Source of the DNA: Verrucomicrobiota bacterium
GTDB lineage: Bacteria; Verrucomicrobiota; Kiritimatiellia; UBA8416; JABMPJ01
NCBI GenBank assembly: GCA_018648805.1
Contig: JABGQM010000024.1
Coordinates: 1,065 to 65,064, forward strand
Direction: 5' to 3'
DNA: 64,000 nucleotides
Shown here: piece by piece, positions 1,199-58,340 of the stretch
How positions within the stretch are numbered: position 1 is the stretch's first letter
How the letters are laid out: each line of letters opens with the position of its first letter
Made by a program: the position numbers and the translations under genes
Notes under the pieces: model-generated
Databases searched by the model: none
What the model was told of the DNA's origin: nothing
What the model saw: only the letters and a program-made list of their open reading frames with translations

Positions 1199-1235
1199 CT
1201 TTCTCGTCCGTGCTCATCCACCCATCTCGATTCTG

Positions 1236-1330
1236 ATCAGAGATTAAGGCGAAAGACCAGGGAACCCAAGCACGGATACCTTAATCTTTCGCCTTAATCT
1301 TTTGCCCTGATCTTCTGCCCTGATTTTCTG
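1236..1330. repeat. GATTAAGGCGAAAG hairpin element (family D) + 12-nt tandem (ccctgatcttctg) upstream of paralog 1
   Basis: gattaaggcgaaagaccaggg aacccaagcacggatac cttaatctttcgccttaatc: arms reverse-complementary. Confidence 0.7.
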
Positions 1331-2400
1331 CGCGCCAGATGGTCTGCGATCCAGCGGGCAATCTGACGATTCGCGGGTGCGTTCCAATGTCCATCCGGTG
1401 CCAGCCACTCGCCGCCGTGCGCCAGGTACCCGCGTTCGAGGGGACCATAGAGGTCGAGCAGATCCACACCGGTCTCCTCGAAGGCCTGCCGCATCATCCC
1501 GTAAACGGGCGCATACGGTGCGTTGCGGCGCACATCGTTGATCCCCCGCGCCACGGGCATGGTCACCACGGTCAGTCCGATGTCGTGTTTCTCACACGTG
1601 GCTCTCACCCGAGCCAGTATCAGCCGACTGACCTCAATGGTTTCGTCCGCCTGGACCGGCCTGTCAAGCGTGTCCGGGAGTCGGCCGAAAAGGATGGCGG
1701 CAAGAAAGCAATGGCGGAAGATCCACGGCTGATGAGTGGCCGTCGGCACCGGAACGTTACGGACCGCCAATCCGGCATCGTCCACGTCGAAGTACGGCTT
1801 GGGATGCGTATAGAGGTCAGTCCGGTCACGGACGACGTCCGACGGCAGCATCACCACGAACACCGCGTGATCGGGGTTGAAACCGACCCCCTGCTGCTCC
1901 AGCCGGAGCATCATCTGACCGAAACCGTACGAATTCTCCCCGAAGTTAAGTGCTTCGGTGCCGGGCAGACATGTTTCCAAGAAGGCCGGTACCGTTTGGT
2001 CGTTGTCAACCCACTGCCCCCAGACGCAGGAGTCGCCAAACACGGCAATGCGCGTGATTCCCGAAGCAGGAGAAGGTGCGTAATCGCGAGTGGCGCGCAA
2101 CCCCTGGTTGTTAATTGTCAGCTTGAAGGGAAACAAGGCATCGCCGCGGAGCCCTGGGAGACTGGTCCACCCCAACACCCGGTGATACGTCTCGCCGTTG
2201 GAACGAAAAGCATCGCGCCCCCCGGACTCGGATATCCATTGAGCCACGCCGGTGATGCGCTCGATCTTCCTGTACCGCCAACGCAGGACAAGCTCGGCAC
2301 CAACCAGCACCACTAGCACGGCGAGCAGCACGGTGAGCAGGGCAAACACGCGCCGCTTTCCGCGCGTCGGCGCGTCACTAATGGAGTCGGCTTGTTTCAT
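1294..2400 (-). CDS. SGNH/GDSL-family hydrolase with N-terminal membrane anchor
   Basis: N-terminal TM helix (FALLTVLLAVLVVLVGAELVL); block I IAVFGDSCVWGQ (GDS), block V DGHWNAPAN (DxxH); C-terminal 12 codons read into hairpin repeat D. Confidence 0.65.
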   Translation of the reverse strand: MKQADSISDAPTRGKRRVFALLTVLLAVLVVLVGAELVLRWRYRKIERITGVAQWISESGGRDAFRSNGETYHRVLGWTSLPGLRGDALFPFKLTINNQGLRATRDYAPSPASGITRIAVFGDSCVWGQWVDNDQTVPAFLETCLPGTEALNFGENSYGFGQMMLRLEQQGVGFNPDHAVFVVMLPSDVVRDRTDLYTHPKPYFDVDDAGLAVRNVPVPTATHQPWIFRHCFLAAILFGRLPDTLDRPVQADETIEVSRLILARVRATCEKHDIGLTVVTMPVARGINDVRRNAPYAPVYGMMRQAFEETGVDLLDLYGPLERGYLAHGGEWLAPDGHWNAPANRQIARWIADHLARRKSGQKIRAKD

Positions 2401-4492: not shown

Positions 4493-4495
4493 CCT

Positions 4496-6460: not shown

Positions 6461-6545
6461 GACAAACGATTAAGGTGAAAGATTAGGGCGAAAGATTAGG
6501 AAACCCAAGCACGGATACCTTAATCTTTCGCCTTAATCTTTTGCC
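6461..6545. repeat. Family D hairpin element, occupies whole 5' leader of paralog 3
   Basis: gattaaggtgaaagattagggcgaaagattagg aaacccaagcacggatac cttaatctttcgccttaatcttttgccctaatc; ends 5 nt before ATG (minus strand). Confidence 0.75.
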
Positions 6546-8606: not shown

Positions 8607-10145
8607 CTATAAAAGGGCCGCAGCCTTGGCCTCCTTTTCTATGGCCTCAGCCTGACGGTCCAGCTTCCGCAGGATGACTCCCCACGTCTGCCACACAGTC
8701 GCCTTTTCCGGTTCGAGGGCCGCGGCCTCCCGGCAGAGCGGCAGTGCTTCCTCGTCCCTCCCCAGCGTCGACAAGATCGTGGCAGCACTTATCCTGTACC
8801 CGGCCTTGTCGGGCGCCAATTCGGCCGCTTTCCGAAAGCCCGCCAATGCCGCCTGCAGATCGCCGGTTGCCGCCTGCATGACAGCCAACTCAGCCAACAG
8901 ATCGGGATCGTCCGGCCGCAGGCGCACCGCGTCCTGCAGGTGCTGAAGGCTTTTCTCGGGGTAAGAAGCCTGCAGACACCGCGCCTCACCGATGAGCGCG
9001 TCACTCATATCCTGCCAGCGCGCGTTCGTGCGCTGTGCGACGAACTCGGCCGCCGCAACGGCATCCTCGGTGAACGGTCCAGCGGCCGATGGAACGGCTC
9101 GCTCACCGCCCACCGCCGCCACCACCTCTTTGAGGGCCAGGGCCGCCACGGTACTCCCGGTTTCGTTGGGGTGCCACCCGTCGCCCACCGTGTAGGCGAG
9201 TTTCGGCCCGTTGCCAAGCTTTGTCGCGGCATAGTGTTGACGAAACGCGGGGGCAAGCCGGAAACACGGGATCCCCACCGCGCGGGCAAGCGGTTCAACG
9301 ATCAGGGTGGTGCCGTCCGGCATGAAAGGTATTTCGGTGATCGCGTCGTCCTCGAAGACGGGCCAAACAGCAACGGCCGGCCGAAACCCGTAGATGTCCG
9401 CGAGTCGCCGCAGCAGGGCCAGGCCCTGCACGACGTTGTTCGATCCGATCGCGGTCTTATTCCGCACTACCGGATCGCGCCGCATGCCGAAACTCGTCCA
9501 TCCGGCACTCACCAGCGTGGCGCGGAACAGGTGCGAACGGGCGAACAATGCCCGGAAGGCTGGCGAGGGCACGTCCTTGTCGGCAAGGGCCTCGACAATG
9601 GACGAATTAAAGTTCTCAAAATCGTTCCAAAAGAAGACGACGATCACGATGTCGGGTTCGAATTTCAGCCCTTTAACGCGCAGCAGTTCGACTTCGGCCA
9701 AGGTACAGTAGCCTCCGACGCCGAAGTTCAGTACCTCGGTCTTGCCGTCCGGGTAGAGCTTCTCGAGTTCACGATTCATGACATCGTTGACGTCGGAAAT
9801 CTCGGTGCTCTCGACGATAGAGTCGCCCAGCAGAATCACCCGGCGCACCCCCGGCGGCTTTGCGATGGTGCGCTCGATGTCGCGCTGCCCGTGGGCATTG
9901 ATCCTTTCGCAAGTAAAGTCGTGATCCGGACTCGGGTTGTAGTAGTCAGGCTTCAGCTCGTAGCCGAGGATGGGATTGTCCGAACGCCGGTAGATGGACT
10001 CGTGATCCTCGAAGGACACGGTGATACGCCGGAACGGCGGGGCGAGCTTGAGCGCCATGGCCAGGATCTCCCCCGCTCCGAGGGCCACTACAACCGCGAG
10101 GATCAGCAGCAGGAGGCGAAAGAGGAGGCGCGCGTTCTTGGTCAT
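8607..10145 (-). CDS. SGNH/GDSL hydrolase domain + C-terminal TPR protein, membrane anchored
   Basis: TM anchor LLFRLLLLILAVVVAL; ILLGDSIVES (GDS), GDGWHPNETG (DxxH); C-terminal TPR-like repeats; stop abuts start of paralog 4. Confidence 0.65.
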   Translation of the reverse strand: MTKNARLLFRLLLLILAVVVALGAGEILAMALKLAPPFRRITVSFEDHESIYRRSDNPILGYELKPDYYNPSPDHDFTCERINAHGQRDIERTIAKPPGVRRVILLGDSIVESTEISDVNDVMNRELEKLYPDGKTEVLNFGVGGYCTLAEVELLRVKGLKFEPDIVIVVFFWNDFENFNSSIVEALADKDVPSPAFRALFARSHLFRATLVSAGWTSFGMRRDPVVRNKTAIGSNNVVQGLALLRRLADIYGFRPAVAVWPVFEDDAITEIPFMPDGTTLIVEPLARAVGIPCFRLAPAFRQHYAATKLGNGPKLAYTVGDGWHPNETGSTVAALALKEVVAAVGGERAVPSAAGPFTEDAVAAAEFVAQRTNARWQDMSDALIGEARCLQASYPEKSLQHLQDAVRLRPDDPDLLAELAVMQAATGDLQAALAGFRKAAELAPDKAGYRISAATILSTLGRDEEALPLCREAAALEPEKATVWQTWGVILRKLDRQAEAIEKEAKAAALL

Positions 10146-12409
10146 TTCTGTATCTCCCCTCTCATCTCCCTCGTCTCCCGCAGATTCTCGACCGCTACAG
10201 CATAATCCGGATTCAATCGCACAGCCTCTTCGAAATGCCTGATCGCGTCCGTAAGCCGGCCGCTTTGCTGGTAGAGAGCACCCAGATTGTTGTGGGCCGA
10301 GGCGTCGGCCGGATTGATGCGCACCGCCTGCCGGCCGCGGGCGATGCCCTCATCGGTAAGGCCGAGATGGTGTAGAGCAACGCCCCAGTTCTTGTGGGCG
10401 CCAGCGTAATCCGGCTTGAGCTGCACGACCTGCCGGTAATGCTCGATGGCTTCCCGGGAGCGTCCCAATGCCAGCAGGGCATTGCCCAGGTTGTAGTGGG
10501 CGTCCACCAACGCCGGTTCGATCCGCACGGCCACTTGATAATGAGCAAGCGCGTCCTGCAACCGTCCTGCCGTCTGCAGTGCGATCCCCCAGTTGAAGTG
10601 GGTCTTTGCATCGCCGGGGTTAAGACGTAGCGCCTCCCGGTAGTGCCGAATGGCTTCCAGGGGTTGGCCCATCGCCAGTAGGGCATTGCCCAGGTTGAGA
10701 TGGGCCTCCCCCAGGCCCGGCTTGATCCGTAACGCTTCCCGGGAGTGCTCCGCAGCTTCCCGGGAGCGCCCCATCACCTGCAGAGCGTGACTCAGATTGC
10801 TGTGGGCTTCAGCGTAATTCGGCTGGATCCGCAGGGCCTGCTGATAGTGGACAATCGCCTCTTGCGGCCGCCCCAGGGCGTTAAGCGCAATCCCCAGGTT
10901 GTAGTGCGCCTCTGCGTAGTCCGGGCTGATCCGCAGCGCTTCGCGACAGTGCTCGAGCGCTTCCCGGGAGCGCCCCGAAGCCAGCAGGGCATTACCCAGG
11001 TTGTTGTGGGCCACATGACTCCCGGGACGATAGGTGACATTGTCCTGCCAGATCCCGATTTCGCTGTGATAGGTCCTGTTGCGACCGTGCGTCAGGACGC
11101 CCAACACGATCATGACCGCCATCGTCAGGCAGGCGCCCAGCGCCACACGTTGTTTCGGGATTTTGACGAGCTTTCGAATGGCAACGTCACCCAGCATGAC
11201 CGCCAACGTGACAACGGCAGCCAGCGAGAGATACATGCGATGTTCGAAGATCGCCTGGCGCGTGGGCGCAACGCTGGAGGTCGGGGCCAGGATCAGGAAG
11301 AACCATGCGAGCACAAACCCGTACCACTTGCGGCGCCGGATGCCGCGGCACATCACGGCCAGCAGGCCCAGGATGGCCAACGCAGGGAACACGATGCGAT
11401 ACCATTGATCCTCCATCCCCCATCCATAAGTGAGCACCAGCGGCGAGGGCCAGACCGCCAGACGAAGGTAATGAAGCAGGACAAGGGGTTGGGTAAGGAG
11501 ATAGCGCAGTGGGCTGATGTTGACGAAATCGCTCGTTGATTCCTGCCAGGTGAGCCCAATGATCCCGAAGACGATCAGCCAGGTCGAACAAAGGGCCGCG
11601 TAGAATCGGCCTCGCGCTCGGCCCATCCTTCGCGCTTCGCTGGCTACGGAGGGCAAGCGAGCGCGGGCTACAGAGAGTGGGCCTTGTAGCCCGCGCCCCG
11701 CAGAGCGGGGTAAACTCGCCGCTTGCCCCGCCTTGGCGGGGAGCGCGAGGCCACCAGGTTCGAGGCCACCAGTGAATATGTAATCGTAGAGAATCACGAG
11801 TAGCGGCGCGCTGAACATGGTCTGCTTGACCCCCATGCCGATGGCGCAGGCGAGGACCGCCGCCACGTGCCAGCGTCCACCCTTGTCGCTCGTAAACCCC
11901 CGAATCGAACAGTACATGGTCAGGAGAAACAGCATCCCCATGAGCGACTCGGCGCGTTGCACGATGTAGGTCACGCTCTCGGTCTGCAGCGGATGCACCA
12001 GCCAGATCAAGGCGACGGCAAGCGATAACCAGGTCGGGTTGCCCGGGCATCGCTCGCGAAGGCGCGGCAGGGCCAGTGTACGCCTGACCACCCCGAACAG
12101 CAGCAACCCGGCCCCGATGTGGATCAGCAGGTTGACTAGGTGATAGCCCCACGGTTCCGGGCCGAAGAGCCAGTGGTTCAGGGAGAAAGAGAGGCTGAGC
12201 AGTGGCCGCCCGTCCACGGTCAATGCCGAGCTCCACAGCGGTAGCGACATGGACTCGCTAAGCGGCCAGAGCAGGCGGATGTGGGGGTTATCGCGAATGG
12301 AGGCCAGGTCGTCGTAAACGAACACGCCATCGAAACTGTTCCAGTACGCAAGCACTCCTGCCAAGATGAGCAGGAGGAAGGGAAGCCAGCGCTTGAGTGG
12401 ATGTTTCAT
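10142..12409 (-). CDS. TMTC/PMT-like GT-C + TPR protein (paralog 5), long in-frame REP/BIME insertion
   Basis: Same architecture; ~57-aa insertion LALPAKAGQAASLPRSAGRGLQGPLSVARARLPSVASEARRMGRARGRF encoded by REP cluster 11608..11752. Confidence 0.7.
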   Translation of the reverse strand: MKHPLKRWLPFLLLILAGVLAYWNSFDGVFVYDDLASIRDNPHIRLLWPLSESMSLPLWSSALTVDGRPLLSLSFSLNHWLFGPEPWGYHLVNLLIHIGAGLLLFGVVRRTLALPRLRERCPGNPTWLSLAVALIWLVHPLQTESVTYIVQRAESLMGMLFLLTMYCSIRGFTSDKGGRWHVAAVLACAIGMGVKQTMFSAPLLVILYDYIFTGGLEPGGLALPAKAGQAASLPRSAGRGLQGPLSVARARLPSVASEARRMGRARGRFYAALCSTWLIVFGIIGLTWQESTSDFVNISPLRYLLTQPLVLLHYLRLAVWPSPLVLTYGWGMEDQWYRIVFPALAILGLLAVMCRGIRRRKWYGFVLAWFFLILAPTSSVAPTRQAIFEHRMYLSLAAVVTLAVMLGDVAIRKLVKIPKQRVALGACLTMAVMIVLGVLTHGRNRTYHSEIGIWQDNVTYRPGSHVAHNNLGNALLASGRSREALEHCREALRISPDYAEAHYNLGIALNALGRPQEAIVHYQQALRIQPNYAEAHSNLSHALQVMGRSREAAEHSREALRIKPGLGEAHLNLGNALLAMGQPLEAIRHYREALRLNPGDAKTHFNWGIALQTAGRLQDALAHYQVAVRIEPALVDAHYNLGNALLALGRSREAIEHYRQVVQLKPDYAGAHKNWGVALHHLGLTDEGIARGRQAVRINPADASAHNNLGALYQQSGRLTDAIRHFEEAVRLNPDYAVAVENLRETREMRGEIQK
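11608..11752. repeat. REP/BIME cluster (3-4 units) inside CDS 10142..12409, in frame
   Basis: contains gcgggctacagagagtgggccttgtagcccgcgccccgcagagcggggtaaactcgccgcttgccccgccttggcggggagcgcgaggcc. Confidence 0.8.
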
Positions 12410-12412
12410 CCT

Positions 12413-14455
12413 TCAGCCCTCATCCTTCATCCTTCTCGTCTCCCGCAAATTCTCTCGCGCCACACTGTACTCCGGTTTCAGTCGCAGCGCCTCTTCAAAA
12501 TGCCTGATCGCATCCGGGAGCCGGCCGCTTTCCTGATAGATGGCACCCAGGTTGTTGTGGGCCGAGGCGTCGGCGGGATTGATGCGCACCGCCTGCAGGC
12601 CGTGGACGATGGCCTCATCGTTGCGGCCCAGGTAGAGCAGCGCGACGCCCCAGTTTTTGTGGGCACCGGCGTAGTCCGGCTCACGCAGCAAGACCTGCCG
12701 GTACTGCTCGATCGCTTCCTGTGGTTGCCCCAGCGCCAGCAGGCGATTGCCCAGGTTGTAACGGGCGTCTACCAGGTCCGGGTCGATCCGCACGGCCTTC
12801 CGATAGTGAGACAGTGCGTCCCCCGGCTGCCCTCCCGCCTCAAGTGCGACCCCGTAGTTGTAAAGGGCCTCCGCGTGGCGGGGGTTTAGTCGCACAGCTT
12901 CGCGGTAGTGTTGCATGGCTTCGCGGAGGTCGCCCAGCGCCTGTAGGGCATTGCCCAGGTTGTTGTGGGCATCCGCGTCCATCGGGTCGATACGTAGCGC
13001 TTCCCGGCAGTGTTCGGCCGCTTCGCGGGAACGCCCCAGCGCCTGCAACGCATGGCCCAGGTTATTGTGGGCAACATGGCTCTCGGGTCGATGGGTGACA
13101 TTGTCCTGCCAGATCCGCAGTTGACTGTGATAGTCCCGGTTGCGATCGTGAGTGCGGTATCCCAACACGATCACGCTTGCCAGCGCCAGGCAGCCGCCCA
13201 CTGCGGCACGTCGTTTCGGGTCCGTGGCGAACTTTCGAACAGCGTACTCAGCGCCAAGAACGGCAAGCATGACAGCTGCCGCCAGCGACAGGTACATGCG
13301 ATGCTCGAAGATGGCCTGGCGCATGGGTGCGATGCTGGAGGTCGGGGCCAAGATCAGGAAGAACCACGCGAGAACGAATCCGTACCATTTGCGGCGGACT
13401 ATGCCGCGGAACATCACGGCGAGCATACCCAGGATGGCCAGAGCAGGAAACACGATGCGGGGCCATTGATCCTCCAGCGTCCAGCCGTAGGACAATACCA
13501 GCGGCGAAGGCCAGACCGCCAGGCGCAGGTACTGCAGCAGAACGAGGGGCTGGGTCAGGAGATAGCGCAGCGGGCTGATGCTGACGAAATCGCTCGTCGA
13601 TTCCTGCCAGGTGGCGACGATGATCGCAAAGACGATCAGCCAGGTCGAGCAAAGGGCCGCGTAGAACCGGCCTCGCGCTCGGCCCATCCTTCGCGCTTCG
13701 CTGGCTACGGAGGGCAGGCGAGCGCGGGCTACAGAGAGCGGGTCCTGTAGCCCGCGCCCCGCGGAGCGGGGTAAACTCGCCGCTTGCCCCGCCTTGGCGG
13801 GGAGCGCGAGGCCATCGGTGAATATGTAATCGTAGAGAATCACGAGTAGCGGCGCGCTGAACATGGTCTGCTTGACCCCCATCCCACAGGCACAGGCGAG
13901 GACGGTGGCCGCGTACCAGCGGCCACTCTTCTCGCCTCTGAGTCCCCGAATCGCGCAGTACATCGTCAGCAGGAAGAGCAGCCCCATCAGCGATTCGGCG
14001 CGCTGTACGATGTAGGTTACGCTCTCGGTCTGCAGGGGGTGGACCAGCCAGATCGCTGCCGTGGCCATGGCAATCCAACAGCCACTGCCCTCATACCGCT
14101 CGCGAAACTGTGGAAGATCAAGCGTGCGCCGGACCACTCCGAAGAGCAGCAGCCCGGCCGCGATATGAATCAGAAGGTTGACCAGATGGTAGCCCCGGGG
14201 CTCCGGACCGAGCAGGGCGTGGTTCAGGGCAAAGGAGAGGCTGAGCAGCGGCCGGCCATCCACGGTCATCCCCGTGCTCCACAGCGGCAGCGACATGGAT
14301 TCGCTCAGCGGCCACAGTCTACAGATGTGTGGGTTATCCCGGATGGAGTGGACGTCGTCGTACAGGAACACACCATCGAAGCTGTTCCAATACGCCGCCA
14401 CCCCCACCAGGATAAGGAGGAGGAAGGGAAGCCAGCTCTTGAGCGGATGTTTCAT
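12413..14455 (-). CDS. TMTC/PMT-like GT-C + TPR protein (paralog 6), in-frame REP/BIME insertion
   Basis: Same motifs; insertion identical in type to paralog 5 (REP cluster 13669..13813). Confidence 0.7.
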   Translation of the reverse strand: MKHPLKSWLPFLLLILVGVAAYWNSFDGVFLYDDVHSIRDNPHICRLWPLSESMSLPLWSTGMTVDGRPLLSLSFALNHALLGPEPRGYHLVNLLIHIAAGLLLFGVVRRTLDLPQFRERYEGSGCWIAMATAAIWLVHPLQTESVTYIVQRAESLMGLLFLLTMYCAIRGLRGEKSGRWYAATVLACACGMGVKQTMFSAPLLVILYDYIFTDGLALPAKAGQAASLPRSAGRGLQDPLSVARARLPSVASEARRMGRARGRFYAALCSTWLIVFAIIVATWQESTSDFVSISPLRYLLTQPLVLLQYLRLAVWPSPLVLSYGWTLEDQWPRIVFPALAILGMLAVMFRGIVRRKWYGFVLAWFFLILAPTSSIAPMRQAIFEHRMYLSLAAAVMLAVLGAEYAVRKFATDPKRRAAVGGCLALASVIVLGYRTHDRNRDYHSQLRIWQDNVTHRPESHVAHNNLGHALQALGRSREAAEHCREALRIDPMDADAHNNLGNALQALGDLREAMQHYREAVRLNPRHAEALYNYGVALEAGGQPGDALSHYRKAVRIDPDLVDARYNLGNRLLALGQPQEAIEQYRQVLLREPDYAGAHKNWGVALLYLGRNDEAIVHGLQAVRINPADASAHNNLGAIYQESGRLPDAIRHFEEALRLKPEYSVARENLRETRRMKDEG
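13669..13813. repeat. REP/BIME cluster inside CDS 12413..14455, in frame
   Basis: near-duplicate of 11608..11752 cluster. Confidence 0.8.
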
Positions 14456-14500
14456 CCTTCAGCTTTCATCCTTCATCCCTCATCCCTCATCCCTCATCCC
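14452..14500. repeat. Heptanucleotide tandem repeat (GAGGGAT)4-GAAGGAT spanning stop codon of paralog 7 and RBS/start of paralog 6
   Basis: minus-strand reading: agagggatgagggatgagggatgagggatgaaggatgaaagctgaaggATG; 2-3-unit versions at 4488..4520 and 12405..12440. Confidence 0.75.
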
Positions 14501-16699
14501 TCTCTTCATCATTTTCCTCGCCTTGCGCAGATTATCTCGCGCCGCAGTATAGTCCGGTTTCAATCGCAGCGCCTCTTCAAAATGCCGGATCGCCTCGGCG
14601 AGTCGGCCGCTTTTCTGGTAGGTCATGCCCAGCTTGTAGTGGGCTGGTGCGAACTCCGGTTCGAAACGCAGGGCGTCTCGATAGCAGTCCATCGCCTCCC
14701 CGGGCTTCCCGGCCGCTTCCAGTGCAATCCCCAGGTTGTACTTGACCTCGGGGGAGTGCGGCTTGAGACGGGCTGCTTCACGGTGGTGCCTGACCCCTTC
14801 CCGGGGCTGTCCCTGCGCCAATAGCGCGTTGCCCAGGTTGATGTGAGCTTCCGCGTGATTCGGGTCGAGCTGTATGGCCTCTCGGTAGCGGGCAATCGCT
14901 TGCCGCGGCTCACCGGCTGCCTCCAGGGCAACCCCCATATTGTAGTTGATTCCGACGGAGTCCGGCTTGAGCCTGAGCGCATCCCGGTAATGCACAATCG
15001 CCTCCCGTGGATGCCCGCCTCTCAGCAGGGCATCACCCAGATTGCCCTGGGCGTCTTCCAGGTCCGGCTTGATCCGTACGGCCTCTCGATAGTGATCTAT
15101 CGCCTCCCCCCGCTGTCCCGACACCTCCAGGGCGATACCCAGGTTGTAGTTGACATCGGCGTCGTCCGGTTTGAGCCGAAGCGCCGCCCGGTAGTGCCGT
15201 ATGGCTTCACGGGTCTGCTTCAGAGCTAGCAGGGCATTGCCCAGGTTGTTGTGAGCATCTGCATACTCCGGGTCGATCCGCAGCGCTTCCCGGCAATGCG
15301 GAAGCGCTTCCCGGGCGCGACCCGACGCCAGCAGGGCCTCGCCGAGATTGACGTGGGCCAGCTGGCTCTCCGGCCGATGCGCAACATTGTCCTGCCACAA
15401 CCCGATGGTGCTGTGATAGTCACGGTTGCGAGCATAGGTGAGGGCCCCGAGGACAACCACGACTACCGCTGCCAGGGCGCCACGCGCCATTGCACGCGTT
15501 GAAACCGTGCGAACGCATCGGACCACGCGCGAGACGCCGATCACCGCGAGGACCACGACCGCCGCGAGCGACAGGTACATGCGGTGCTCGACCATCGCCT
15601 GCCGTGTGGGTGCGATGCTGGAGGTCGGTGCGAGGATCAGGAGGAACCACGCCAGGACGAACCCATACCAGCGGCGGCGCCACAGGCCCCGAATCATCAC
15701 GGCCAGCATGCCCAGAATAACCAGGGCCGGAAACACGATGGGTGGCCACTGAGTTGTAAATGGCCACTCGTAAGACAGAACCAGTGGCGACGGCCAGACC
15801 GCCAGGCGCAGATACTGCAGTAGAACGAGGGGCTGGGTAAGGGCGTAGCGCAGCGGACTGATCTCGACAAAATCGATCGTCGATTCCTTCCAGGTTAACC
15901 CGATGATGCCGAGAACGATCAGCCAGGTGGCAAAGAGGCCCGCGTAGAACCGGCCTCGCGCTCGGCGAGCGCGGGCTACATGGCCCGATCTCTGTAGCCC
16001 GCGCTCGCCGAGCGCGAGGCCATCGGTGAATACGTAGTCATAGAGAATCACCAGCAGCGGTGCACTGAACATCGTCTGCTTGACTCCCATGCCGATGGCG
16101 CAGGCGACGACGGCGGCCACGTACCAGCGTCCACCCTTGTCGCTCGTGAACCCCCTAATCGCACAATACATCGTCAACAGAAACAACATCCCCATCAGTG
16201 ACTCGGCGCGTTGCACGATGTAGGTGACGCTCTCGGTCTGCAGCGGATGCACCAGCCAGATCAAGGCGACGGCAAGCGACAACCAGGTCGGGTTGCCCGG
16301 GCATCGCTCGCGAAAGCGCGGCAGGTCCAGTGTACGCCTGACCACCCCGAAGAGGAGCAACCCGGCCACGAGGTGAATCAGCAGGTTGACCAGGTGGTAG
16401 CCCCACGGTTCCGGGCCGAACAAGAAATGATTCAGAGCAAATGACAGACTGAGCAACGGCCGCCCGTCCACGGTCGTAGCCGTGCTCCACAGCGGCAGCG
16501 ACATAGCCTCACTGAGCGGCCACAGCGTGCGGATATGTGGGTTATCCCGAATGGAGGTTAGATCGTCGTACAGGAACACGCCGTCGAAGCTGTTCCAGTA
16601 CGCCAGCACACCCGCCAAGATCAGGAGCAAGGGGGGGAGGAAACGACTCAGCAGTATGTGAGTGTGTGGGTGTCTGGGTATGTTGGTGTTGCGTTGCAT
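14480..16699 (-). CDS. TMTC/PMT-like GT-C + TPR protein (paralog 7), in-frame REP insertion
   Basis: N-term MQRNTNIPRHPHTHILLSRFLPPLLLIL then conserved core; insertion DGLALGERGLQRSGHVARARRARGRF from REP pair 15952..16021. Confidence 0.7.
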   Translation of the reverse strand: MQRNTNIPRHPHTHILLSRFLPPLLLILAGVLAYWNSFDGVFLYDDLTSIRDNPHIRTLWPLSEAMSLPLWSTATTVDGRPLLSLSFALNHFLFGPEPWGYHLVNLLIHLVAGLLLFGVVRRTLDLPRFRERCPGNPTWLSLAVALIWLVHPLQTESVTYIVQRAESLMGMLFLLTMYCAIRGFTSDKGGRWYVAAVVACAIGMGVKQTMFSAPLLVILYDYVFTDGLALGERGLQRSGHVARARRARGRFYAGLFATWLIVLGIIGLTWKESTIDFVEISPLRYALTQPLVLLQYLRLAVWPSPLVLSYEWPFTTQWPPIVFPALVILGMLAVMIRGLWRRRWYGFVLAWFLLILAPTSSIAPTRQAMVEHRMYLSLAAVVVLAVIGVSRVVRCVRTVSTRAMARGALAAVVVVVLGALTYARNRDYHSTIGLWQDNVAHRPESQLAHVNLGEALLASGRAREALPHCREALRIDPEYADAHNNLGNALLALKQTREAIRHYRAALRLKPDDADVNYNLGIALEVSGQRGEAIDHYREAVRIKPDLEDAQGNLGDALLRGGHPREAIVHYRDALRLKPDSVGINYNMGVALEAAGEPRQAIARYREAIQLDPNHAEAHINLGNALLAQGQPREGVRHHREAARLKPHSPEVKYNLGIALEAAGKPGEAMDCYRDALRFEPEFAPAHYKLGMTYQKSGRLAEAIRHFEEALRLKPDYTAARDNLRKARKMMKRGMRDEG
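15952..16021. repeat. REP pair inside CDS 14480..16699, in frame
   Basis: ggcctcgcgctcggcgagcgcgggctaca...ctgtagcccgcgctcgccgagcgcgaggcc. Confidence 0.85.
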
Positions 16700-18720: not shown

Positions 18721-18782
18721 CTCAGAGTGAAGGTGGCCCTCCCTGTGGTGTAGCGCGAGATCCGAGCTGGCACGGGGCCGGG

Positions 18783-30332: not shown

Positions 30333-30351
30333 AGGCGCAGTGTGGCAGATG

Positions 30352-44251: not shown

Positions 44252-44260
44252 ATCGACCGT

Positions 44261-44390
44261 GTAGCCCGCTCTCGCCGAGAGCGAGGCTCCCCGTGGATAT
44301 GGGCATTGGCGCCATCTCTGCCTCGCGCTCGGCGAGCGCGGGCTACATGATGCACGTTCCCTGTAGCCCGCGCTTGCCAAGCGCGAGGCC
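44261..44390. repeat. Intergenic REP cluster (3 units)
   Basis: tgtagcccgctctcgccgagagcgaggc...cctcgcgctcggcgagcgcgggctaca...ctgtagcccgcgcttgccaagcgcgaggcc. Confidence 0.85.
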
Positions 44391-44401
44391 ATCCCGGAAG
44401 A

Positions 44402-48356: not shown

Positions 48357-48710
48357 ATGAGTGCGCGAGATAACAAGCTGCCGATTCCCGTCCGTAGGGC
48401 CTTGGTCAAGCTGGGCGAGGACATTCGTGATGCGCGGCGGCGGCGGCGCATACAAGTCAAAGTAATGGCTGAGCGGGCCTCAATCACGCGTTCCACACTT
48501 CACCGCGTCGAAAAGGGCGATTCAGGGGTCTCACTGGGCATCTACGCATCGGTGCTGTTCGTCTTGGGGATGCTTGATCGCCTGGTTGATATTGCCGACG
48601 TGGCGCACGATCAGCTCGGCCTGTCCCTTGAGGCAGAAGCCCTTCCCAAACGGATTCGGCATTCCGCGCCACGTGTCGTAGGTCAGAGAGGCGGTCAGCG
48701 GCTGGCGTGA
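48357..48710 (+). CDS. XRE-family HTH transcriptional regulator
   Basis: IQVKVMAERASITRSTLHRVEKGDSGVSLGIYASVL Cro/C1-type HTH. Confidence 0.65.
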   Translation: MSARDNKLPIPVRRALVKLGEDIRDARRRRRIQVKVMAERASITRSTLHRVEKGDSGVSLGIYASVLFVLGMLDRLVDIADVAHDQLGLSLEAEALPKRIRHSAPRVVGQRGGQRLA

Positions 48711-48812: not shown

Positions 48813-51170
48813 ATGAACGACAGGATAGACAAACAAGAGCCCCACACACCCACACACTCACACGCTCATGCTCTGCTCCCCCGTCTCCTCCCCTTCCTCC
48901 TCATCATCCTGGCCGGCGTGCTGGCCTACTGGAACAGCTTCGACGGTGTGTTCGTCTATGACGACCTGGACTCCATTCGCGATAACCTGCACATCCGCAA
49001 GCTCTGGCCGCTCAAGGAGTCCCTCTCGCTGCCGCTGCTGAGCAGTGCAACCACCGTGGACGGGCGGCCGTTGCTGAGTCTCTCACTGGCGTTGAACCAC
49101 TCGCTTTTCGGTCCGGAGCCGTGGGGCTACCACCTGGTCAACCTGCTAATCCACCTCGCGGCCGGACTGCTCCTGTTTGGCGTCGTCAGGCGTACGCTGC
49201 ACCTGCCGCAGTTTCGTGAGCGCTACGCGCGAAGTGCTTGCCCTTCGGAGCCTTGGCGCAGTAGGGGACGCTGGCTCGCCCTGGCCACCGCCCTGATCTG
49301 GCTGGTCCATCCCCTGCAGACCGAGAGCGTCACCTATATCGTGCAACGCGCCGAATCACTGATGGGCATGCTGTTTCTGCTGACGATGTATTGTGCGATT
49401 CGCGGGTTTACGAGTGGGGAGAGTCGGGAGGAAGACGGGTCGCACGGTGCCCAGGAACATGCAAAGGTCCCGGCCGAGAGGAACTACAGCGAGAACTTTG
49501 TCGTGAACCATTCCGATTCTAACTATTCCGTGAACTTTGCCGAGAACTACTTCGGACTAGTTTACGGCAAAGTTTACGGGATAGTCCGGCGATGTAGTTT
49601 ACGACAAAGTTCACGATGTAGCTGCAGGTCAGGCACAAAGAACCCATCCCTTTGGTACGTGGCGGCGATCATCGCCTGCGCCATCGGGATGGGGGTCAAG
49701 CAAACCATGTTCAGCGTGCCGCTACTGGTCTTGCTCTACGACGCCCTGTTCATCTCCGACTCGTTTCGTGCCGCGCTGACGAAGCGGTGGCGGCTCTACG
49801 CGGCCCTCTGTTCGACCTGGCTGATCATTTTCGGGATCATGGCGCTCTCATGGCAGGAATCGACGATCGACTTCGTCAAGATCAGTCCGCTGCGCTACGC
49901 CCTCACTCAGCCGCTTGTGATTCTGTACTACCTGCGCTTGGTGTTCTGGCCCTCGCCGCTGGTGCTGGAGTACGGCTGGGCATTGGAGGATCAATGGCAT
50001 CGCATCGTGTTCCCGGCTCTCGCCATCCTGGGCATGCTTGCCGCAATGTTCCGCGGCATAGTCCGCCGCAAGTGGTACGGGTTCGTGGCCGCGTGGTTCT
50101 TCCTGATCCTGGCCCCGACGTCAAGCATTGCGCCCACACGGCAGGCCATCTTCGAACACCGCATGTACCTGTCGCTGGCAGCGGTTGTCATGCTCGTGGT
50201 CGTTGGTGGTGAGGCCGCGCTGCGCAAGCTGGTCACGGAGCGGAAACGACGTGTCGTGCTCGGTGGCTGCATGGTGACGGCAATCATGATTGTACTCGGA
50301 TGCCTGACACACAACCGCAACACGGATTATCATAGTGAGATCGGGATTTGGCAGGATGATGTCGCCCATCGCCCCGGGAACGCGCTCGCGCATCTCAACC
50401 TGGGCAATGCCGTGCAGGGGGTGGGACGTCCGCGGGATGCGGTCGCACATTACCGCGAAGCGCTGCGATTGAAACCGGACTACGCGGAGGCTCACTACAA
50501 TTGGGGGGTTGCACTGGAGGCGGCGGGTCAGACGCAGGAGGCGATGGTCCACTATCAACAGGCCCTGCAGCTCAAGCCGGACTATGCCGAAGCCCACAAC
50601 AACATGGCCCACGCGCTGGAGGCCTCGGGACGCCCCCGGGAAGCTGTTGAGCACTGCCGCAAGGCCCTGCAAATCAGGCCTGGACTGCCGGACGTCCACT
50701 TCAACCTGGGCAACGCCCTGCAGGCGCTGGGCCGTTCCGGGGAAGCTATTCAGCACTACCGTGAGGCGCTACGGCTGAGACCCGACTACGCCGAAGCCCA
50801 TCTTGGCTGGGGCAACGTGCTGTTGGTGTCGGGCCGGCTGGAGGAAGCGGTCGGGCAGTACCGGGAAGCGCTGCGACTGAAACCGGACTACGCGGAGGCC
50901 CACTATCACTGGGGGATGGCACTGGACGCGGCACGGCGGCCGCAGGAATCGATGACGCACTATCAACAGGCCGTGCGGATCAAGCCGACTATGGCGGCCG
51001 CGCACCTTAACCTGGGCAATGCCGTGCTGGCGCTGGGCCGCCCCCGCGAAGCAATTCCACATTACCGGCAGGCCCTGCGGATCAGGCCGGACTACGTCCA
51101 CGCCCGCGACAACCTGCGTCAAGTCCAGGCGATGCTGCGGGAGGGCAGGGGGACGAACATCGAACACTGA
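48813..51170 (+). CDS. TMTC/PMT-like GT-C + TPR protein (paralog 8, plus strand) with in-frame insertion of GTGAAC-type repeat
   Basis: Same conserved core as array paralogs; ~70-aa low-complexity insertion (NYSENFVVNHSDSNYSVNFAENYFGLVYGKVYG...) encoded by repeat 49480..49626; no REP insertion. Confidence 0.7.
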   Translation: MNDRIDKQEPHTPTHSHAHALLPRLLPFLLIILAGVLAYWNSFDGVFVYDDLDSIRDNLHIRKLWPLKESLSLPLLSSATTVDGRPLLSLSLALNHSLFGPEPWGYHLVNLLIHLAAGLLLFGVVRRTLHLPQFRERYARSACPSEPWRSRGRWLALATALIWLVHPLQTESVTYIVQRAESLMGMLFLLTMYCAIRGFTSGESREEDGSHGAQEHAKVPAERNYSENFVVNHSDSNYSVNFAENYFGLVYGKVYGIVRRCSLRQSSRCSCRSGTKNPSLWYVAAIIACAIGMGVKQTMFSVPLLVLLYDALFISDSFRAALTKRWRLYAALCSTWLIIFGIMALSWQESTIDFVKISPLRYALTQPLVILYYLRLVFWPSPLVLEYGWALEDQWHRIVFPALAILGMLAAMFRGIVRRKWYGFVAAWFFLILAPTSSIAPTRQAIFEHRMYLSLAAVVMLVVVGGEAALRKLVTERKRRVVLGGCMVTAIMIVLGCLTHNRNTDYHSEIGIWQDDVAHRPGNALAHLNLGNAVQGVGRPRDAVAHYREALRLKPDYAEAHYNWGVALEAAGQTQEAMVHYQQALQLKPDYAEAHNNMAHALEASGRPREAVEHCRKALQIRPGLPDVHFNLGNALQALGRSGEAIQHYREALRLRPDYAEAHLGWGNVLLVSGRLEEAVGQYREALRLKPDYAEAHYHWGMALDAARRPQESMTHYQQAVRIKPTMAAAHLNLGNAVLALGRPREAIPHYRQALRIRPDYVHARDNLRQVQAMLREGRGTNIEH
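49480..49626. repeat. GTGAAC-type palindromic element (family B) inside CDS 48813..51170, in frame
   Basis: gagaactttgtcgtgaacca...ccgtgaactttgccgagaactac...gtagtttacgacaaagttcacgatgtag; arms are reverse complements. Confidence 0.75.
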
Positions 51171-51254
51171 ACACTGAACATCGAAGGGCGCATGGCAGTT
51201 GCGTAGGTTCCTCCTACATCATGCAGGACGGAAATATGAGGTTAGTCGCAGCCG

Positions 51255-51455
51255 ACGTAGTTCACGACAAAGTCCACGGGCTGGTTTTTCGAGGTAGTTC
51301 ACGACAATGTTCACGATGTAGTGTTCAGCTCCATCGCATGGGGCGCGAAGCCACTGTTGTCCATAGTCCTGTTAGAGCACTCACCTCGTGAACTTTGTCG
51401 TGAACTACCCCGCAATAACTACAGCGTTGAACTTTGTCGTCAACTATTTCGATCC
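51255..51455. repeat. Family B palindromic element, intergenic
   Basis: gtagttcacgacaaagtccacggg/gtagttcacgacaatgttcacgatgtag ... cgtgaactttgtcgtgaactacc/gttgaactttgtcgtcaactatttc. Confidence 0.75.
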
Positions 51456-51617
51456 ACCAGGCACTCCGCCCACCTCAGATGTTCGAATTATCCACACAGC
51501 TGCCATGCGCCCAACATCGAACATCCCCGTTTTCCTCCGTGACTTCGCGTTCCCGGGGCGAGTACTCTCGGGAGCACTGGAAAACGAGAATCGAGAGAGT
51601 ACGGTAACCTGACTATC

Positions 51618-55140: not shown

Positions 55141-55857
55141 ATGCCGGCCCCCACTATCTCCATAGTCATACCGGCGTTCAATGAAGAACAACACCTTGAG
55201 CAGACGGTCCTTGGTGTCATAGGCCTCCTCGACAGTAGCGTCGGGCGTGACTCCGAAATACTCATCTTCGATGATGGCAGCACGGACGGGACGGGCGTGA
55301 TCGCCGAGGAGCTGTCGCAACGATATCCGTTCATAAGGTCCTTCCATTTCAAGCAGAACCAGGGACTGGGTCACGTGGCACGCCGTGCGATAAAGGAGGC
55401 GGGCAAGGACTACATCATGTGGCATACGGGAGACGGCTCCGTTGACAGCCGGTCACTGGTCCCCGCCATGCGCTCGATTGGCAAGGCCGACATCATCGTC
55501 GCCTACCTGGAGAATCAGAACGACCGCATATGGATCAGGAGCGCCCTCTCCCGATCATTCGTGGCGCTCTATAACGTGCTGTTTCATTTGAAGCTCAGGT
55601 ACTACAGCGGACCGTCCATCTTCCCCTGTGAGGTCCTGAGGAGCCTGTCCATCAAGTCCGGCCGGTATGAGTTCTGGGCGGAGATCATGGTCCGATGCCT
55701 GAAGCTGGGACTGACGCATATCGAAATGCCTTTTGTCCACAACCCGCCCGCTGACAATTCCCTGGCAACCGTCAGACCGAAGAACGTGGGCAATGCGCTG
55801 AGGATCGCGCTCATCCTGATGAACGACCTGTACCTCAGGAAGAATGTACGGGGCTAG
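55141..55857 (+). CDS. GT2 glycosyltransferase, DPM1-like, paralog C
   Basis: ISIVIPAFNEEQHLE, ILIFDDGSTDGTGVIA, DIIVAY; ATG immediately after radical-SAM stop. Confidence 0.8.
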   Translation: MPAPTISIVIPAFNEEQHLEQTVLGVIGLLDSSVGRDSEILIFDDGSTDGTGVIAEELSQRYPFIRSFHFKQNQGLGHVARRAIKEAGKDYIMWHTGDGSVDSRSLVPAMRSIGKADIIVAYLENQNDRIWIRSALSRSFVALYNVLFHLKLRYYSGPSIFPCEVLRSLSIKSGRYEFWAEIMVRCLKLGLTHIEMPFVHNPPADNSLATVRPKNVGNALRIALILMNDLYLRKNVRG

Positions 55858-55892
55858 GGGGGAATGGCGCTTAGTTAAGCCACTTCTCCCAC

Positions 55893-56027
55893 TATTTCGT
55901 AAACTTTGTCGTGAACTATCTCGATCCCTACTACTCCGTGAACCTTGTCGTAAACTACTCCGGAATAGTTCACGACAAGGTTTGCGAGGTAGTTATTCGG
56001 TTATAGTTCACGACAAAGTTCACGATC
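55893..56027. repeat. Family B palindromic element, intergenic
   Basis: cgtaaactttgtcgtgaactatc...ccgtgaaccttgtcgtaaactac...tagttcacgacaaggtttgcgagg...tagttcacgacaaagttcacgatc. Confidence 0.75.
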
Positions 56028-56044
56028 CAGTCCAGCCCCCTCAC

Positions 56045-56140
56045 AGTCCCAAACTCTCTTATCTAAGTGCCATTCCAGGCTAGTACGGAATTCTCACCAA
56101 TGAACGCCTTATCTAAGCGCCATTCCAGGCTAGTAGGCCT
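56045..56140. repeat. Tandem direct repeat (2 x ~50 bp) related to family C
   Basis: cttatctaagtgccattccaggctagta(cggaattctcaccaatgaacgc)cttatctaagcgccattccaggctagta. Confidence 0.7.
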
Positions 56141-58047: not shown

Positions 58048-58140
58048 CACATGCCCCTCTCGTGTACCAGGGGCAGTGTGAAACGATCGGATGACGATTG
58101 CAATGGGATTGTGCACTTCCCCCTCTACCCTCGAATGGCA

Positions 58141-58340
58141 CCTAGATAAGCACGGGTCTGCCCATTTCAATATCCAATATCCAACAAGGAACTCCCAATA
58201 TCCAAGTGAGCGCTATCAGCGAATGGTGTGTCATGTGACTGGACATTCGCCCTTCGCACGCACTTGGGAGTTGGGAGTTCCTTGTTGGATATTGGGTGTT
58301 CAATTTCCTCCAATGAGCGCCTTATCCAAGTGCTATTTTC
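58141..58340. repeat. Family C MITE-like element
   Basis: atccaatatccaacaaggaactcccaatatccaagtg...cacttgggagttgggagttccttgttggatattgggtg (≈38-bp terminal inverted repeats). Confidence 0.75.

What the first reader, a model, noticed from the sequence alone, without database searches (positions are those of the whole stretch)
49480..49626. Second palindromic element family (GTGAAC-N6-GTGAAC) inserted in-frame in the plus-strand paralog, at a different loop
Paralog 48813..51170 has a ~70-aa low-complexity insert (…NYSENFVVNHSDSNYSVNFAENYFGLVYGKVYG…) after IRGFTSGES, where the other copies read DKGGRW. The coding DNA is a palindromic element built from GTGAACTTTGTCGTGAACTA / TAGTTCACGACAAAGTTCAC units, which also occurs intergenically at 51255..51455 and 55893..56027. 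So two unrelated selfish-element families have independently landed in frame in permissive loops of the same protein family. The internal GTTCAC-6-GTTCAC direct-hexamer periodicity also resembles a winged-helix regulator binding site.
Basis: seen in the sequence. Interest (0 to 1): 0.6.

Follow-up and report, generated by a model that had tools for sequence, protein, structure and literature searches.

The report
Palindromic repeat inserted in-frame in gene
A 141-base palindromic repeat, one copy of a family scattered through Verrucomicrobia-type (PVC) bacteria, sits in frame inside a variable loop of a membrane glycosyltransferase-like gene, and the same repeat units flank a small "four-helix-bundle" gene inside a 1.1-kb mobile cassette, so this is selfish DNA tolerated in a protein rather than a regulator site.

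Summary
Window 49482-49622 is a four-unit palindrome, [- - + +] of the 20-mer TAGTTCACGACAAAGTTCAC. It lies in frame in ORF 48813..51170, and two more four-unit copies lie at 51258-51446 and 55899-56023 (12 unit matches against 0 expected). It is not an assembly artefact: the identical 785-aa protein occurs on 8 contigs read, with at least three separate metagenome assemblies shown.

The insert relative to the window's paralogs is 74 codons, but only about 47 come from the repeat. The rest is a hypervariable loop that is also expanded in other homologs. One homolog (P0006) has the homologous element at the same spot, still in frame.

The unit family is widespread in PVC-group MAGs and metagenomes (about 150 clusters). 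The intergenic copy at 51186-51512 is a true MITE, with 13-nt perfect terminal inverted repeats and a 9-bp target duplication. It is an internal-deletion derivative of a ~1.1-kb TIR/TSD-bounded cassette whose only gene is a tandem PF05635 (23S-rRNA-IVS-type) four-helix-bundle protein flanked by the units.

The ORF copy itself has no target duplication, so how it arrived is unknown. The winged-helix operator idea is not supported. The closest analogue is the Rickettsia palindromic elements. Interest is moderate.

The parts
48813..51170 (+). Host gene: 785-aa protein with an N-terminal multi-pass membrane domain (weak PMT_2 hit; JGI name 'protein O-mannosyl-transferase') and C-terminal TPR repeats. 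It is a paralog of six genes at 2531..16699 on the minus strand.
49416..49652 (+). Variable loop segment (residues 202-280) that replaces the 5-residue DKGGR of the window paralogs, a net +222 nt and in frame. The model has low confidence here (pLDDT <50 for residues 205-276).
49482..49622 (.). E1: the four-unit palindromic core [- - + +], read as NYSENFVVNHSDSNYSVNFAENYFGLVYGKVYGIVRRCSLRQSSRCS. Unit cores lie at 49491-49510(-), 49530-49549(-), 49558-49577(+) and 49595-49614(+).
49623..49652 (+). Right flank of the core. It is not a unit, but it is shared (87.5% over 40 nt) with the homologous insertion in homolog P0006/L038.
51186..51512 (.). E2: a 327-nt MITE with perfect 13-nt terminal inverted repeats GGGCGCATGGCAG and units [+ +] at 51258/51295 and [- -] at 51388/51427. 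The 73-nt centre is homologous to the gene-flanking parts of the four-helix-bundle cassette, so E2 is an internally deleted derivative of that cassette.
51177..51185 (.). Left copy of E2's 9-bp target-site duplication, AACATCGAA.
51513..51521 (.). Right copy of E2's 9-bp target-site duplication, AACATCGAA.
55854..56083 (.). E3: a ~216-230-nt element with outer inverted repeats (CTAGnnn)GGAATGGCRCTTAGNTAAG enclosing a [- - + +] core (55899, 55938, 55966, 56004). Copies with flanks identical up to the repeat ends lie on at least 6 other metagenome contigs. Homolog L077 has a 10-bp target duplication.
58132..58337 (.). A MITE with the same outer inverted repeats as E3 but an unrelated core. It shows that the unit core and the outer shell are separable modules.

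Best explanation
E1 is a copy of a non-coding, ~141-nt palindromic repeat module that became part of a protein-coding gene and is tolerated there.

The module. It consists of two inverted pairs of a 34-nt unit. Each unit is made of 12-nt sub-repeats, CGAnnnAGTTCA.

Shown:
- The module is dispersed in PVC-group bacteria.
- It lies in a hypervariable loop between two hydrophobic helices of a TPR/glycosyltransferase-like paralog.
- The reading frame is kept there, and also in a diverged homolog that carries the homologous insertion.
- The same unit pairs flank a tandem four-helix-bundle (PF05635) gene inside a ~1.1-kb cassette bounded by terminal inverted repeats and a 9-10-bp target duplication.
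- The neighbouring intergenic copy E2 is a deletion derivative (MITE) of that cassette.

Inferred:
- The insertion is neutral or nearly neutral 'selfish DNA in a permissive loop', surviving because this copy happened to fall in one of the few open frames with a length divisible by three.
- The units are sequence-specific recognition sites, for the cassette's four-helix-bundle protein, for a transposase acting in trans, or for a host factor, rather than a mere hairpin.
- The core reached the ORF without a classical cut-and-paste event, since there is no target duplication. Possible routes are hairpin/ssDNA-type transposition or recombination with another copy.
For: Repeat identity and non-randomness.

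Insertion relative to paralogs.

Independent assemblies.

Family distribution. The scans returned 35 genome loci and 95 metagenome loci. I estimate about 17 chance hits for the genome scan, but the multi-unit clusters are confined to Victivallales, Kiritimatiellia, Verrucomicrobia, Planctomycetota and unclassified PVC MAGs. Among 123 clusters away from contig ends, '--++' occurs 15 times and '++--' 11 times.

The loop is a hot spot. P0006 has the homologous [- - +] element with the same right flank, in frame. P0007 and P0011 carry a 66-nt palindrome of related 12-mers. Other homologs have unrelated expansions.

Conservation of the insert. The E1-versus-L038 insert region is ~81% identical, like the flanking coding DNA (79-80%) and above third-codon positions (64%).

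Open frames are rare. Only 15 of 114 frames of '--++' cores are stop-free, so an open in-frame copy is a selected survivor.

Cassette. L135 (protein P0124, found in sample ERZ508549, which also yielded a contig carrying the window's gene) runs TIR GGGCGCATGaCAG, [+ +], a 249-aa tandem PF05635 gene, [- -], TIR. It is 1104 nt long with target duplication (A)ATGTTGAGA. The same gene lies beside the units in L005, L020, L054, L088, L090, L109, L120 and L139, flanked on both sides where both are visible. A size series of 314, 327, 439, 496 and 1104 nt shares the same TIRs. E2's centre is homologous to the cassette (0 of 300 shuffles).

Gene content. The four-helix-bundle gene is the only recurrent neighbouring gene. 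Its model (pLDDT 89.9) matches only the S23p-family structures 2GSC and 2RLD.
Against: - No expression, proteomic or RNA data exist. The gene could be a recently dead paralog whose frame is open by luck, although the homolog P0006 keeps an even longer insert open.
- No empty-site ortholog was found. The next best homolog is only ~67% identical, so 'insertion' rests on comparison with paralogs.
- The core has no target duplication and no transposase or RAYT was found, so its mobility mechanism is unproven.
- The two unit arrangements ([+ +]..[- -] and [- -][+ +]) are not explained.
- Covariation between the arms is modest (16 of 500 shuffles reach the observed score) and shows no strand bias in G:U wobble (43 versus 31). 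Neither an RNA-hairpin reading nor a DNA-site reading is established.
Confidence: 0.75

Rival explanations
1. The units are operator sites of a host transcription factor (winged-helix or response regulator, or the adjacent XRE protein at 48357..48710). On this reading the ORF copy is an intragenic regulatory site.
For: There is a direct hexamer repeat, GTTCAC-N6-GTTCAC. The unit sequence is strongly conserved, with invariant positions. This fits protein recognition better than mere pairing, given that no strand-biased wobble is seen. E2 and E3 lie between co-directional genes.
Against: - The period is 12 nt, not the 10-11 nt of OmpR/PhoB-type sites (established knowledge).
- The same units occur in many PVC-group lineages, inside MITEs with target duplications, flanking a mobile cassette gene, and inside an ORF.
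- No promoter-like signal accompanies them.
- The XRE gene is not a recurrent neighbour.
Confidence: 0.07
2. The module's selected function is at the RNA level. On this reading it is a long hairpin that is processed by RNase III or stabilises transcripts, as in 23S rRNA intervening sequences and Correia elements. In the ORF it would down-regulate or split the mRNA.
For: E1 folds at -96.9 kcal/mol with z = -8.3. 95% of cells are paired across 14 copies, and two columns switch between U-A and C-G. In the cassette the unit pairs bracket the four-helix-bundle ORF exactly as IVS stems bracket S23p ORFs, which RNase III cleaves (PMC4990558). Correia hairpins are RNase III substrates (PMC10969869).
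Against: - There is no strand bias of G:U against A:C mismatches in gene-oriented elements (43 versus 31).
- The sequence itself, not just the pairing, is conserved across lineages.
- There is no Rfam match above threshold.
- Persistent in-frame maintenance in two diverged genes argues that the mRNA is translated through the element.
Confidence: 0.2
3. The paralog is a pseudogene or dispensable copy, and the open frame through the insert is chance.
For: The window holds seven or more paralogs, so redundancy is likely. Only about 13% of frames through such cores are open, which is rare but possible. The structure model of the insert has very low confidence.
Against: - The full 785-aa ORF is intact, with all family-invariant residues aligned.
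- P0006 keeps a ~250-aa longer composite insert open at the same place.
- The insert region is more conserved than third-codon positions.
Confidence: 0.1
4. The insert is an assembly or sequencing chimera created by a repeat.
For: Repeats of this family often end contigs: 28 of 151 clusters lie at contig edges.
Against: The identical protein is on 8 contigs read, from JGI, ENA and NCBI assemblies. L036 and L037 reproduce the element with identical unit positions.
Confidence: 0.01

Closest known systems
Rickettsia palindromic elements (RPEs; Ogata et al. 2000, summarised in PMC10969869)
   Same: Both are ~100-150-bp palindromic repeats. Both are found intergenically and also inserted in frame in protein-coding genes, adding a peptide in a structurally permissive place.
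   Different: The phylum and sequence differ. RPE copies sit in ORFs very often (nearly half in three of the ten families), whereas here only 1 of roughly 100 multi-unit clusters (plus its homolog) is mid-gene and most frames carry stops. This module is built of 12-nt sub-repeats and also travels inside other MITEs.
MITEs and mobile insertion cassettes (MICs: IS-type ends plus a passenger gene, no transposase)
   Same: E2 has perfect terminal inverted repeats, a 9-bp target duplication, multiple copies and a size series descending from a 1.1-kb gene-bearing element. The 1.1-kb element carries a non-transposase gene between TIRs and a TSD, as a MIC does.
   Different: No cognate transposase was found. 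The E1 core itself lacks TIR/TSD signatures beyond its own palindromy. The same inner module occurs in shells with three unrelated TIRs.
REP/BIME and REPIN-RAYT systems
   Same: Short units occur in alternating orientations in mosaic clusters. Hairpin doublets lack a target duplication. A gene is flanked by inverted copies of the repeat.
   Different: The flanked gene is a tandem four-helix-bundle protein, not an IS200/IS605-type Y1 transposase. The unit is not itself a palindrome.
23S rRNA intervening sequences encoding S23p (PF05635) proteins (PMC4990558)
   Same: A PF05635 four-helix-bundle ORF sits in the loop of a stem formed by flanking inverted repeats. The distribution looks 'selfish', and ORF-less versions exist.
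   Different: The element here is not in rRNA. The protein is a tandem duplication (~250 aa). The cassette has TIRs and a target duplication, which I did not find reported for IVSs. E1 has no ORF.
OmpR/PhoB-type direct-repeat operators
   Same: Direct hexamer repeats.
   Different: The period is 12 nt. The units occur as a multi-copy dispersed family inside mobile elements and an ORF.

Membership tests
MITE (applied to the E1 core, 49482-49622) | Terminal inverted repeats | tested here: met
   The core is itself an imperfect palindrome, with arms 74-88% complementary. Across 14 copies 95% of cells are paired.
MITE (applied to the E1 core, 49482-49622) | Target-site duplication flanking the element | tested here: not met
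   Only 1 of 20 '--++' cores has a flanking direct repeat of 6 nt or more (null mean 0.7). E1 has none, apart from an imperfect TGCA(AA)GGTC / TGCAGGTC.
MITE (applied to the E1 core, 49482-49622) | Many dispersed, small, non-coding copies | tested here: met
   About 150 clusters in 130 loci. Most frames carry stops.
MITE (applied to E2, 51186-51512) | TIRs, TSD, and derivation from a longer element | tested here: met
   Perfect 13-nt TIRs and a perfect 9-bp TSD, AACATCGAA. L017 has TSD TGCCGCCGG. A size series of 314-1104 nt shares the same TIRs. The centre is homologous to the cassette.
MITE / autonomous transposon pair | A cognate transposase-encoding element with the same ends | tested here: inconclusive
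   None was found among ~130 loci. The collection scans were exhausted, so absence is not shown.
REPIN-RAYT | A Y1 (IS200/IS605-like) transposase gene flanked by the repeat | tested here: not met
   The only gene flanked by the units is PF05635/TIGR02436. Its fold matches only 2GSC and 2RLD.
Rickettsia palindromic elements | Sequence membership in an RPE family | not tested
   No RPE sequences were available in the tools. Only the behaviour (in-frame palindromic insert) is compared, from PMC10969869.
23S rRNA IVS (S23p type) | A PF05635 ORF enclosed by stem-forming inverted repeats | tested here: met
   This holds for the cassette (L135, L139, L005, L020 and others). It does not hold for E1, which has no ORF.
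23S rRNA IVS (S23p type) | Location inside a 23S rRNA helix and excision by RNase III | tested here: not met
   All copies seen lie between or inside protein genes. Cleavage by RNase III is not testable here.
OmpR/PhoB-type winged-helix operator | Direct repeats spaced one helical turn apart (10-11 bp), upstream of regulated promoters | tested here: not met
   The period is 12 nt. Copies lie in an ORF, in MITEs, and with no promoter-like site nearby.
Rfam RNA families | A match at the family's gathering score | tested here: not met
   Only sub-threshold miRNA-hairpin look-alikes were found.

The most novel reading that the evidence does not exclude
The unit pairs may be the cis-acting arms of a previously undescribed class of mobile cassettes built around S23p/23S-IVS-type four-helix-bundle genes. 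On this reading, the cassette transposes, as its TIRs and 9-10-bp target duplication indicate. The tandem four-helix-bundle protein recognises the 12-nt-periodic units. The arms can also spread on their own as hairpin modules into other MITEs and even into protein-coding loops such as E1. That would give the long-puzzling 'selfish' scatter of PF05635 genes (rRNA intervening sequences, cas operons) a concrete, testable mobility mechanism.
Probability: 0.2. Interest if true: 0.7.

Novelty: new variant of a known kind. Interest (0 to 1): 0.45.

Why it matters
As given, the finding is another example, in a new phylum, of palindromic selfish DNA surviving in frame in a permissive protein loop. It is useful for annotation: low-complexity 'NFVVN...SSRQSSR' peptides in PVC proteins are translated repeats. 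It is also useful for thinking about how loops grow.

The less ordinary by-product is that the same units bracket a tandem four-helix-bundle (23S-IVS-protein family) gene in a TIR/TSD-bounded 1.1-kb cassette with MITE derivatives. This ties a protein family of unknown function and 'selfish' distribution to a defined mobile element that can be tested experimentally.

Tried and rejected
1. E1 as a circular permutation of the cassette (left flank equals cassette centre). Local alignments are no better than shuffles (p = 0.2-0.86).
2. E1's outer flanks as an outer palindrome or MITE shell. The flanks alone fold at z = -0.8. They have no similarity to the E2 or E3 spacers and TIRs (the one p = 0.007 among 24 tests is not significant after correction).
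3. Target duplications around the naked '--++' cores. None beyond chance.
4. Strand-specific RNA selection. G:U versus A:C mismatches in gene-oriented stems are 43 versus 31, not significant.
5. A recurrent transposase or RAYT near the units. All-against-all clustering of neighbouring ORFs finds only the four-helix-bundle gene, spurious ORFs across the repeats, and host sulfatases or TPR proteins. L056's apparent homology to the host gene is only the translated repeat.
6. A second, degenerate TIR ~1.48 kb away in L017 and L022. The interval holds a host nucleoside-phosphorylase-like gene, so the match is chance.
7. Rfam, promoter and terminator scans found nothing relevant.
8. The structure model of the host protein's N-terminal 530 aa has mean pLDDT 53.7, too poor for a fold search. 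It is used only to note low confidence over residues 205-276. A simple hydropathy scan did not resolve the topology.
9. Literature. No paper in the searchable library prints the unit sequence or links four-helix-bundle genes with MITE terms.
Full report
**1. Checking the observation**

The sequence at 49480-49626 is as described. It contains two copies of GTGAACTTTGTCGTGAACTA-like units followed by two copies of the reverse complement, TAGTTCACGACAAAGTTCAC. Allowing up to 3 mismatches, the 20-mer occurs 12 times in the 64-kb window against 0.00 expected from shuffles. The matches fall into three clusters of four:

| Cluster | Coordinates | Arrangement | Position |
|---|---|---|---|
| E1 | 49491-49614 | [- - + +] | inside ORF 48813..51170 |
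| E2 | 51258-51446 | [+ +, 73 nt, - -] | intergenic |
| E3 | 55899-56023 | [- - + +] | intergenic |

The ORF is open through E1. Against six paralogs in the window, residues 202-280 (nt 49416-49652) replace the pentapeptide DKGGR, a net gain of 74 codons.

It is about 34 nt, built from three 12-nt sub-repeats (CGAnGTAGTTCA, CGACAAAGTTCA, CGAnGTAGTT). Invariant positions are interrupted every fourth base by a mostly transitional variable position. The 12-nt period explains the N-x-x-x-N look of the peptide.

**2. Not an artefact, not unique**

The exact 785-aa protein, insert included, is encoded on 8 contigs read, from separate JGI, ENA and NCBI assemblies. The source is annotated as a Verrucomicrobia MAG. 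An independent 11-kb contig (L036) reproduces all three elements.

I scanned one genome per species (GTDB) and the JGI metagenomes with the degenerate unit. The scans returned 35 and 95 loci. By my own estimate about 17 hits in the genome scan are expected by chance. The single hits inside conserved genes of gut bacteria look like exactly that.

Multi-unit clusters with the same 37-39-nt spacing occur repeatedly in Victivallales, Kiritimatiellia, Verrucomicrobia, a Planctomycetota MAG and unclassified PVC bins. A profile search finds 151 clusters. Counted away from contig ends, '--++' occurs 15 times and '++--' 11 times, and 28 clusters sit at contig ends, as expected for a multi-copy repeat.

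**3. What exactly is inserted in the gene**

Only 49482-49622 (about 141 nt, residues ~224-270) is the repeat. The ~65 nt to its left and ~30 nt to its right are not units. They are not a significant palindrome without the core (z = -0.8), and they match nothing in E2, E3 or the cassette described below.

Homologs from the protein database show that this loop is hypervariable across the family:
- P0006 carries the homologous element ([- - +]) with the same right flank (87.5% over 40 nt) at the same position. Further nested palindromes follow it, and all of this is in frame.
- P0007 and P0011 carry a 66-nt palindrome of related 12-mers, CTTTGTCGCGAG three times and its inverse three times, read as NFVASFVASFVDKVTDKARDKV.
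- Other homologs have unrelated expansions.

The E1 and P0006 insert regions are ~81% identical. That equals the flanking coding DNA (79-80%) and exceeds third-codon positions (64%). The insertion is therefore shared by descent (or by conversion) and has not drifted freely.

Only 15 of 114 reading frames through '--++' cores are stop-free. Among roughly 100 multi-unit clusters, only E1 and its homolog are mid-gene. The other cases of overlap with long open stretches lie at gene ends or are translated repeat only. The in-frame copy is thus a rare survivor of selection, not a property designed into the element.

A structure model of the N-terminal 530 residues is poor overall (mean pLDDT 53.7). 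Confidence is below 50 for residues 205-276, between better-modelled helices. The side of the membrane on which the loop lies remains unresolved.

**4. What the family is**

The intergenic copies turned out to be composite.

*E2.* E2 spans 51186-51512. It has perfect 13-nt terminal inverted repeats, GGGCGCATGGCAG, and a perfect 9-bp target-site duplication, AACATCGAA. Elements with the same ends occur in Victivallales MAGs and in metagenomes at 314, 327, 439, 496 and 1104 nt, and L017 has the duplication TGCCGCCGG.

*The 1104-nt member.* L135 was found through its protein P0124, independently of the DNA motif, in samples that include ERZ508549, which also yielded a contig carrying the window's gene. 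Its layout is TIR, spacer, [+ +], a 249-aa gene, [- -], spacer, TIR, flanked by the duplication (A)ATGTTGAGA.

*The gene.* It is a tandem duplication of the PF05635/TIGR02436 'four helix bundle / 23S rRNA intervening sequence protein' domain.
- Its model is confident (pLDDT 89.9) and resembles only the S23p-family structures 2GSC and 2RLD. There is no nuclease or transposase fold.
- The same gene lies beside the units in L005, L020, L054, L088, L090, L109, L120 and L139, with units on both sides wherever both flanks are visible.
- It is the only gene family that recurs next to the units.
- Its database homologs sit overwhelmingly on ~1.0-1.5-kb contigs, the signature of a repeated ~1.1-kb element.

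E2's centre is significantly homologous to the sequence adjoining that gene (0 of 300 shuffles). E2 is therefore an internally deleted, MITE-type derivative of a 'mobile insertion cassette' whose passenger is the four-helix-bundle gene.

*Other shells.* The same four-unit core also sits inside two other shells:
- A 307-nt marine MITE with at least 8 copies at ~95% identity, TIR CGTGGGTGGCTGATT, and 8-bp target duplications such as TAAGGAAA, AAACCTTT and ATCCAATA.
- The E3 type, whose outer repeats are (CTAGnnn)GGAATGGCRCTTAGNTAAG. Homolog L077 has a 10-bp duplication, and copies identical up to the ends lie on at least 6 other contigs.

A further MITE at 58132-58337 has E3's outer repeats but an unrelated core. 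Core and shell are therefore separable modules, as in mosaic elements such as BIMEs.

**5. How it probably works, and what is not known**

*Shown.* The unit family is mobile as part of TIR/TSD-bounded elements. The units bracket a four-helix-bundle gene. E1 is a shell-less copy of the core within a variable loop, and it keeps the frame.

*Not shown: how a shell-less core moves.* The '--++' cores have no target duplication of their own (1 of 20 against a null of 0.7). No transposase or RAYT was seen. Arrival by a hairpin/ssDNA-type mechanism or by recombination with another copy is therefore only an inference.

*Not shown: what recognises the units.*
- Hairpin potential is strong, and two columns co-vary between arms.
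- However, the covariation is modest and could reflect shared ancestry.
- G:U against A:C mismatches show no strand bias in gene-oriented stems.
- The sequence itself is conserved across lineages.

I therefore lean towards sequence-specific recognition at the level of DNA or of either strand. Candidates are the cassette's own protein, a transposase acting in trans, or a host factor. An RNase III-type stem, as in S23p-encoding rRNA intervening sequences (PMC4990558), remains a live rival.

*Other open points and exclusions.*
- Why both arrangements exist is unexplained. A diverged homolog (P0204) even has the inverse orientation around its gene.
- The operator hypothesis is disfavoured by the 12-nt period, the distribution and the contexts.
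- No promoter, terminator or Rfam feature coincides with the elements.

**6. Comparison with known systems, and verdict**

In behaviour E1 is closest to Rickettsia palindromic elements, which insert in frame in genes (PMC10969869). It differs from them in that in-gene copies are rare here. E2 and the L135 cassette meet the MITE and mobile-insertion-cassette criteria, except that no cognate transposase was found. REPIN-RAYT membership fails because the flanked gene is not a Y1 transposase. IVS membership fails on location.

No paper in the searchable library prints the unit or links PF05635 genes to MITE features. The idea that intervening sequences are relics of transposition is old (cited in PMC4990558).

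The finding itself is real, and its core interpretation is right. It is of moderate interest as a new variant of a known phenomenon. The link to a four-helix-bundle gene cassette is the part most worth following up.

Noticed in passing
window 58132-58337: A ~206-nt MITE with the same outer inverted repeats as E3 (CGAATGGCACCTAGATAAG ... CTTATCCAAGTGCTATT) but a different palindromic core (CCAATATCCAACAAGGAACTCCCAA...). It shows that shell and core are exchangeable modules.
   Followed up: partly
window 56108-56135: A second copy of E3's right terminal repeat plus the following AGGCTAGTA lies 50 nt downstream of the first. This looks like a local duplication of the element end.
   Followed up: no
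window 3765-3848, 5700-5738, 7834-7914, 15942-16022 (in paralogs), plus at least 10 intergenic sites (e.g. 18619-18721, 22110-22224, 30342-30512, 44251-44391): The GC-rich palindrome family GCCTCGCGCTCGGCGAGCGCGGGCTACA is read in frame as GGLALGERGLQ in six minus-strand paralogs. In genes 10142..12409 and 12413..14455 its apex carries a further nested insert (PAKAGQAASLPRSA).
   Followed up: partly
L039 3510-3578 (protein P0007, a homolog of window gene 10142..12409): The same TM-helix loop holds a 66-nt palindrome of 12-mers, CTTTGTCGCGAG three times followed by the inverse three times, translated as NFVASFVASFVDKVTDKARDKV. This is a simpler relative of the unit, in frame at the same loop.
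   Followed up: partly
L038 632-1290 (protein P0006): The loop is about 250 aa longer than in the window paralogs. It is a chain of several different nested palindromic repeats (for example ENPPLAPPRRGT...SSPPWRGWGW), all kept in frame.
   Followed up: no
L050, L051, L073, L074, L083, L097, L104 (Ga03101xx marine metagenomes): A 307-nt MITE family at ~95% identity with sharp boundaries, TIR CGTGGGTGGCTGATT and clear 8-bp AT-rich target duplications, carrying the same [+ + - -] core. In L054 one copy abuts a 5'-truncated tandem four-helix-bundle gene.
   Followed up: partly
L001 2300-2599 and 4189-4488: Two 100%-identical copies (at least 300 nt) of an E2-type element flank an AbiEi/AbiEii-like gene pair, next to an IS1182/IS5-like transposase ORF (470..2092). 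This may be a composite or recombination-built cassette.
   Followed up: no
L141 2436-2452 / 3253-3269 (protein P0204): A 45%-identical tandem four-helix-bundle gene is flanked by diverged inverted repeats, TCACTTTGTCGCTCACT / AGTGGGAGACAAAGTGA. The unit orientation relative to the gene is the opposite of that in L135.
   Followed up: no
window 49416-49652, 51186-51521, 55861-56076: The three window elements have lengths divisible by three: the 222-nt net insert at E1 (49416-49652), the 327-nt E2 MITE plus its 9-bp duplication, and the 216-nt E3. This may be coincidence.
   Followed up: no
window 2531-16699 (minus strand) and 48813-51170: A tandem array of six to seven TPR/glycosyltransferase-like paralogs sits in a cluster with radical-SAM/SPASM, GT2 and GDSL-lipase-TPR genes. 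This is an unusually expanded family and a hot spot for repeat insertions.
   Followed up: no
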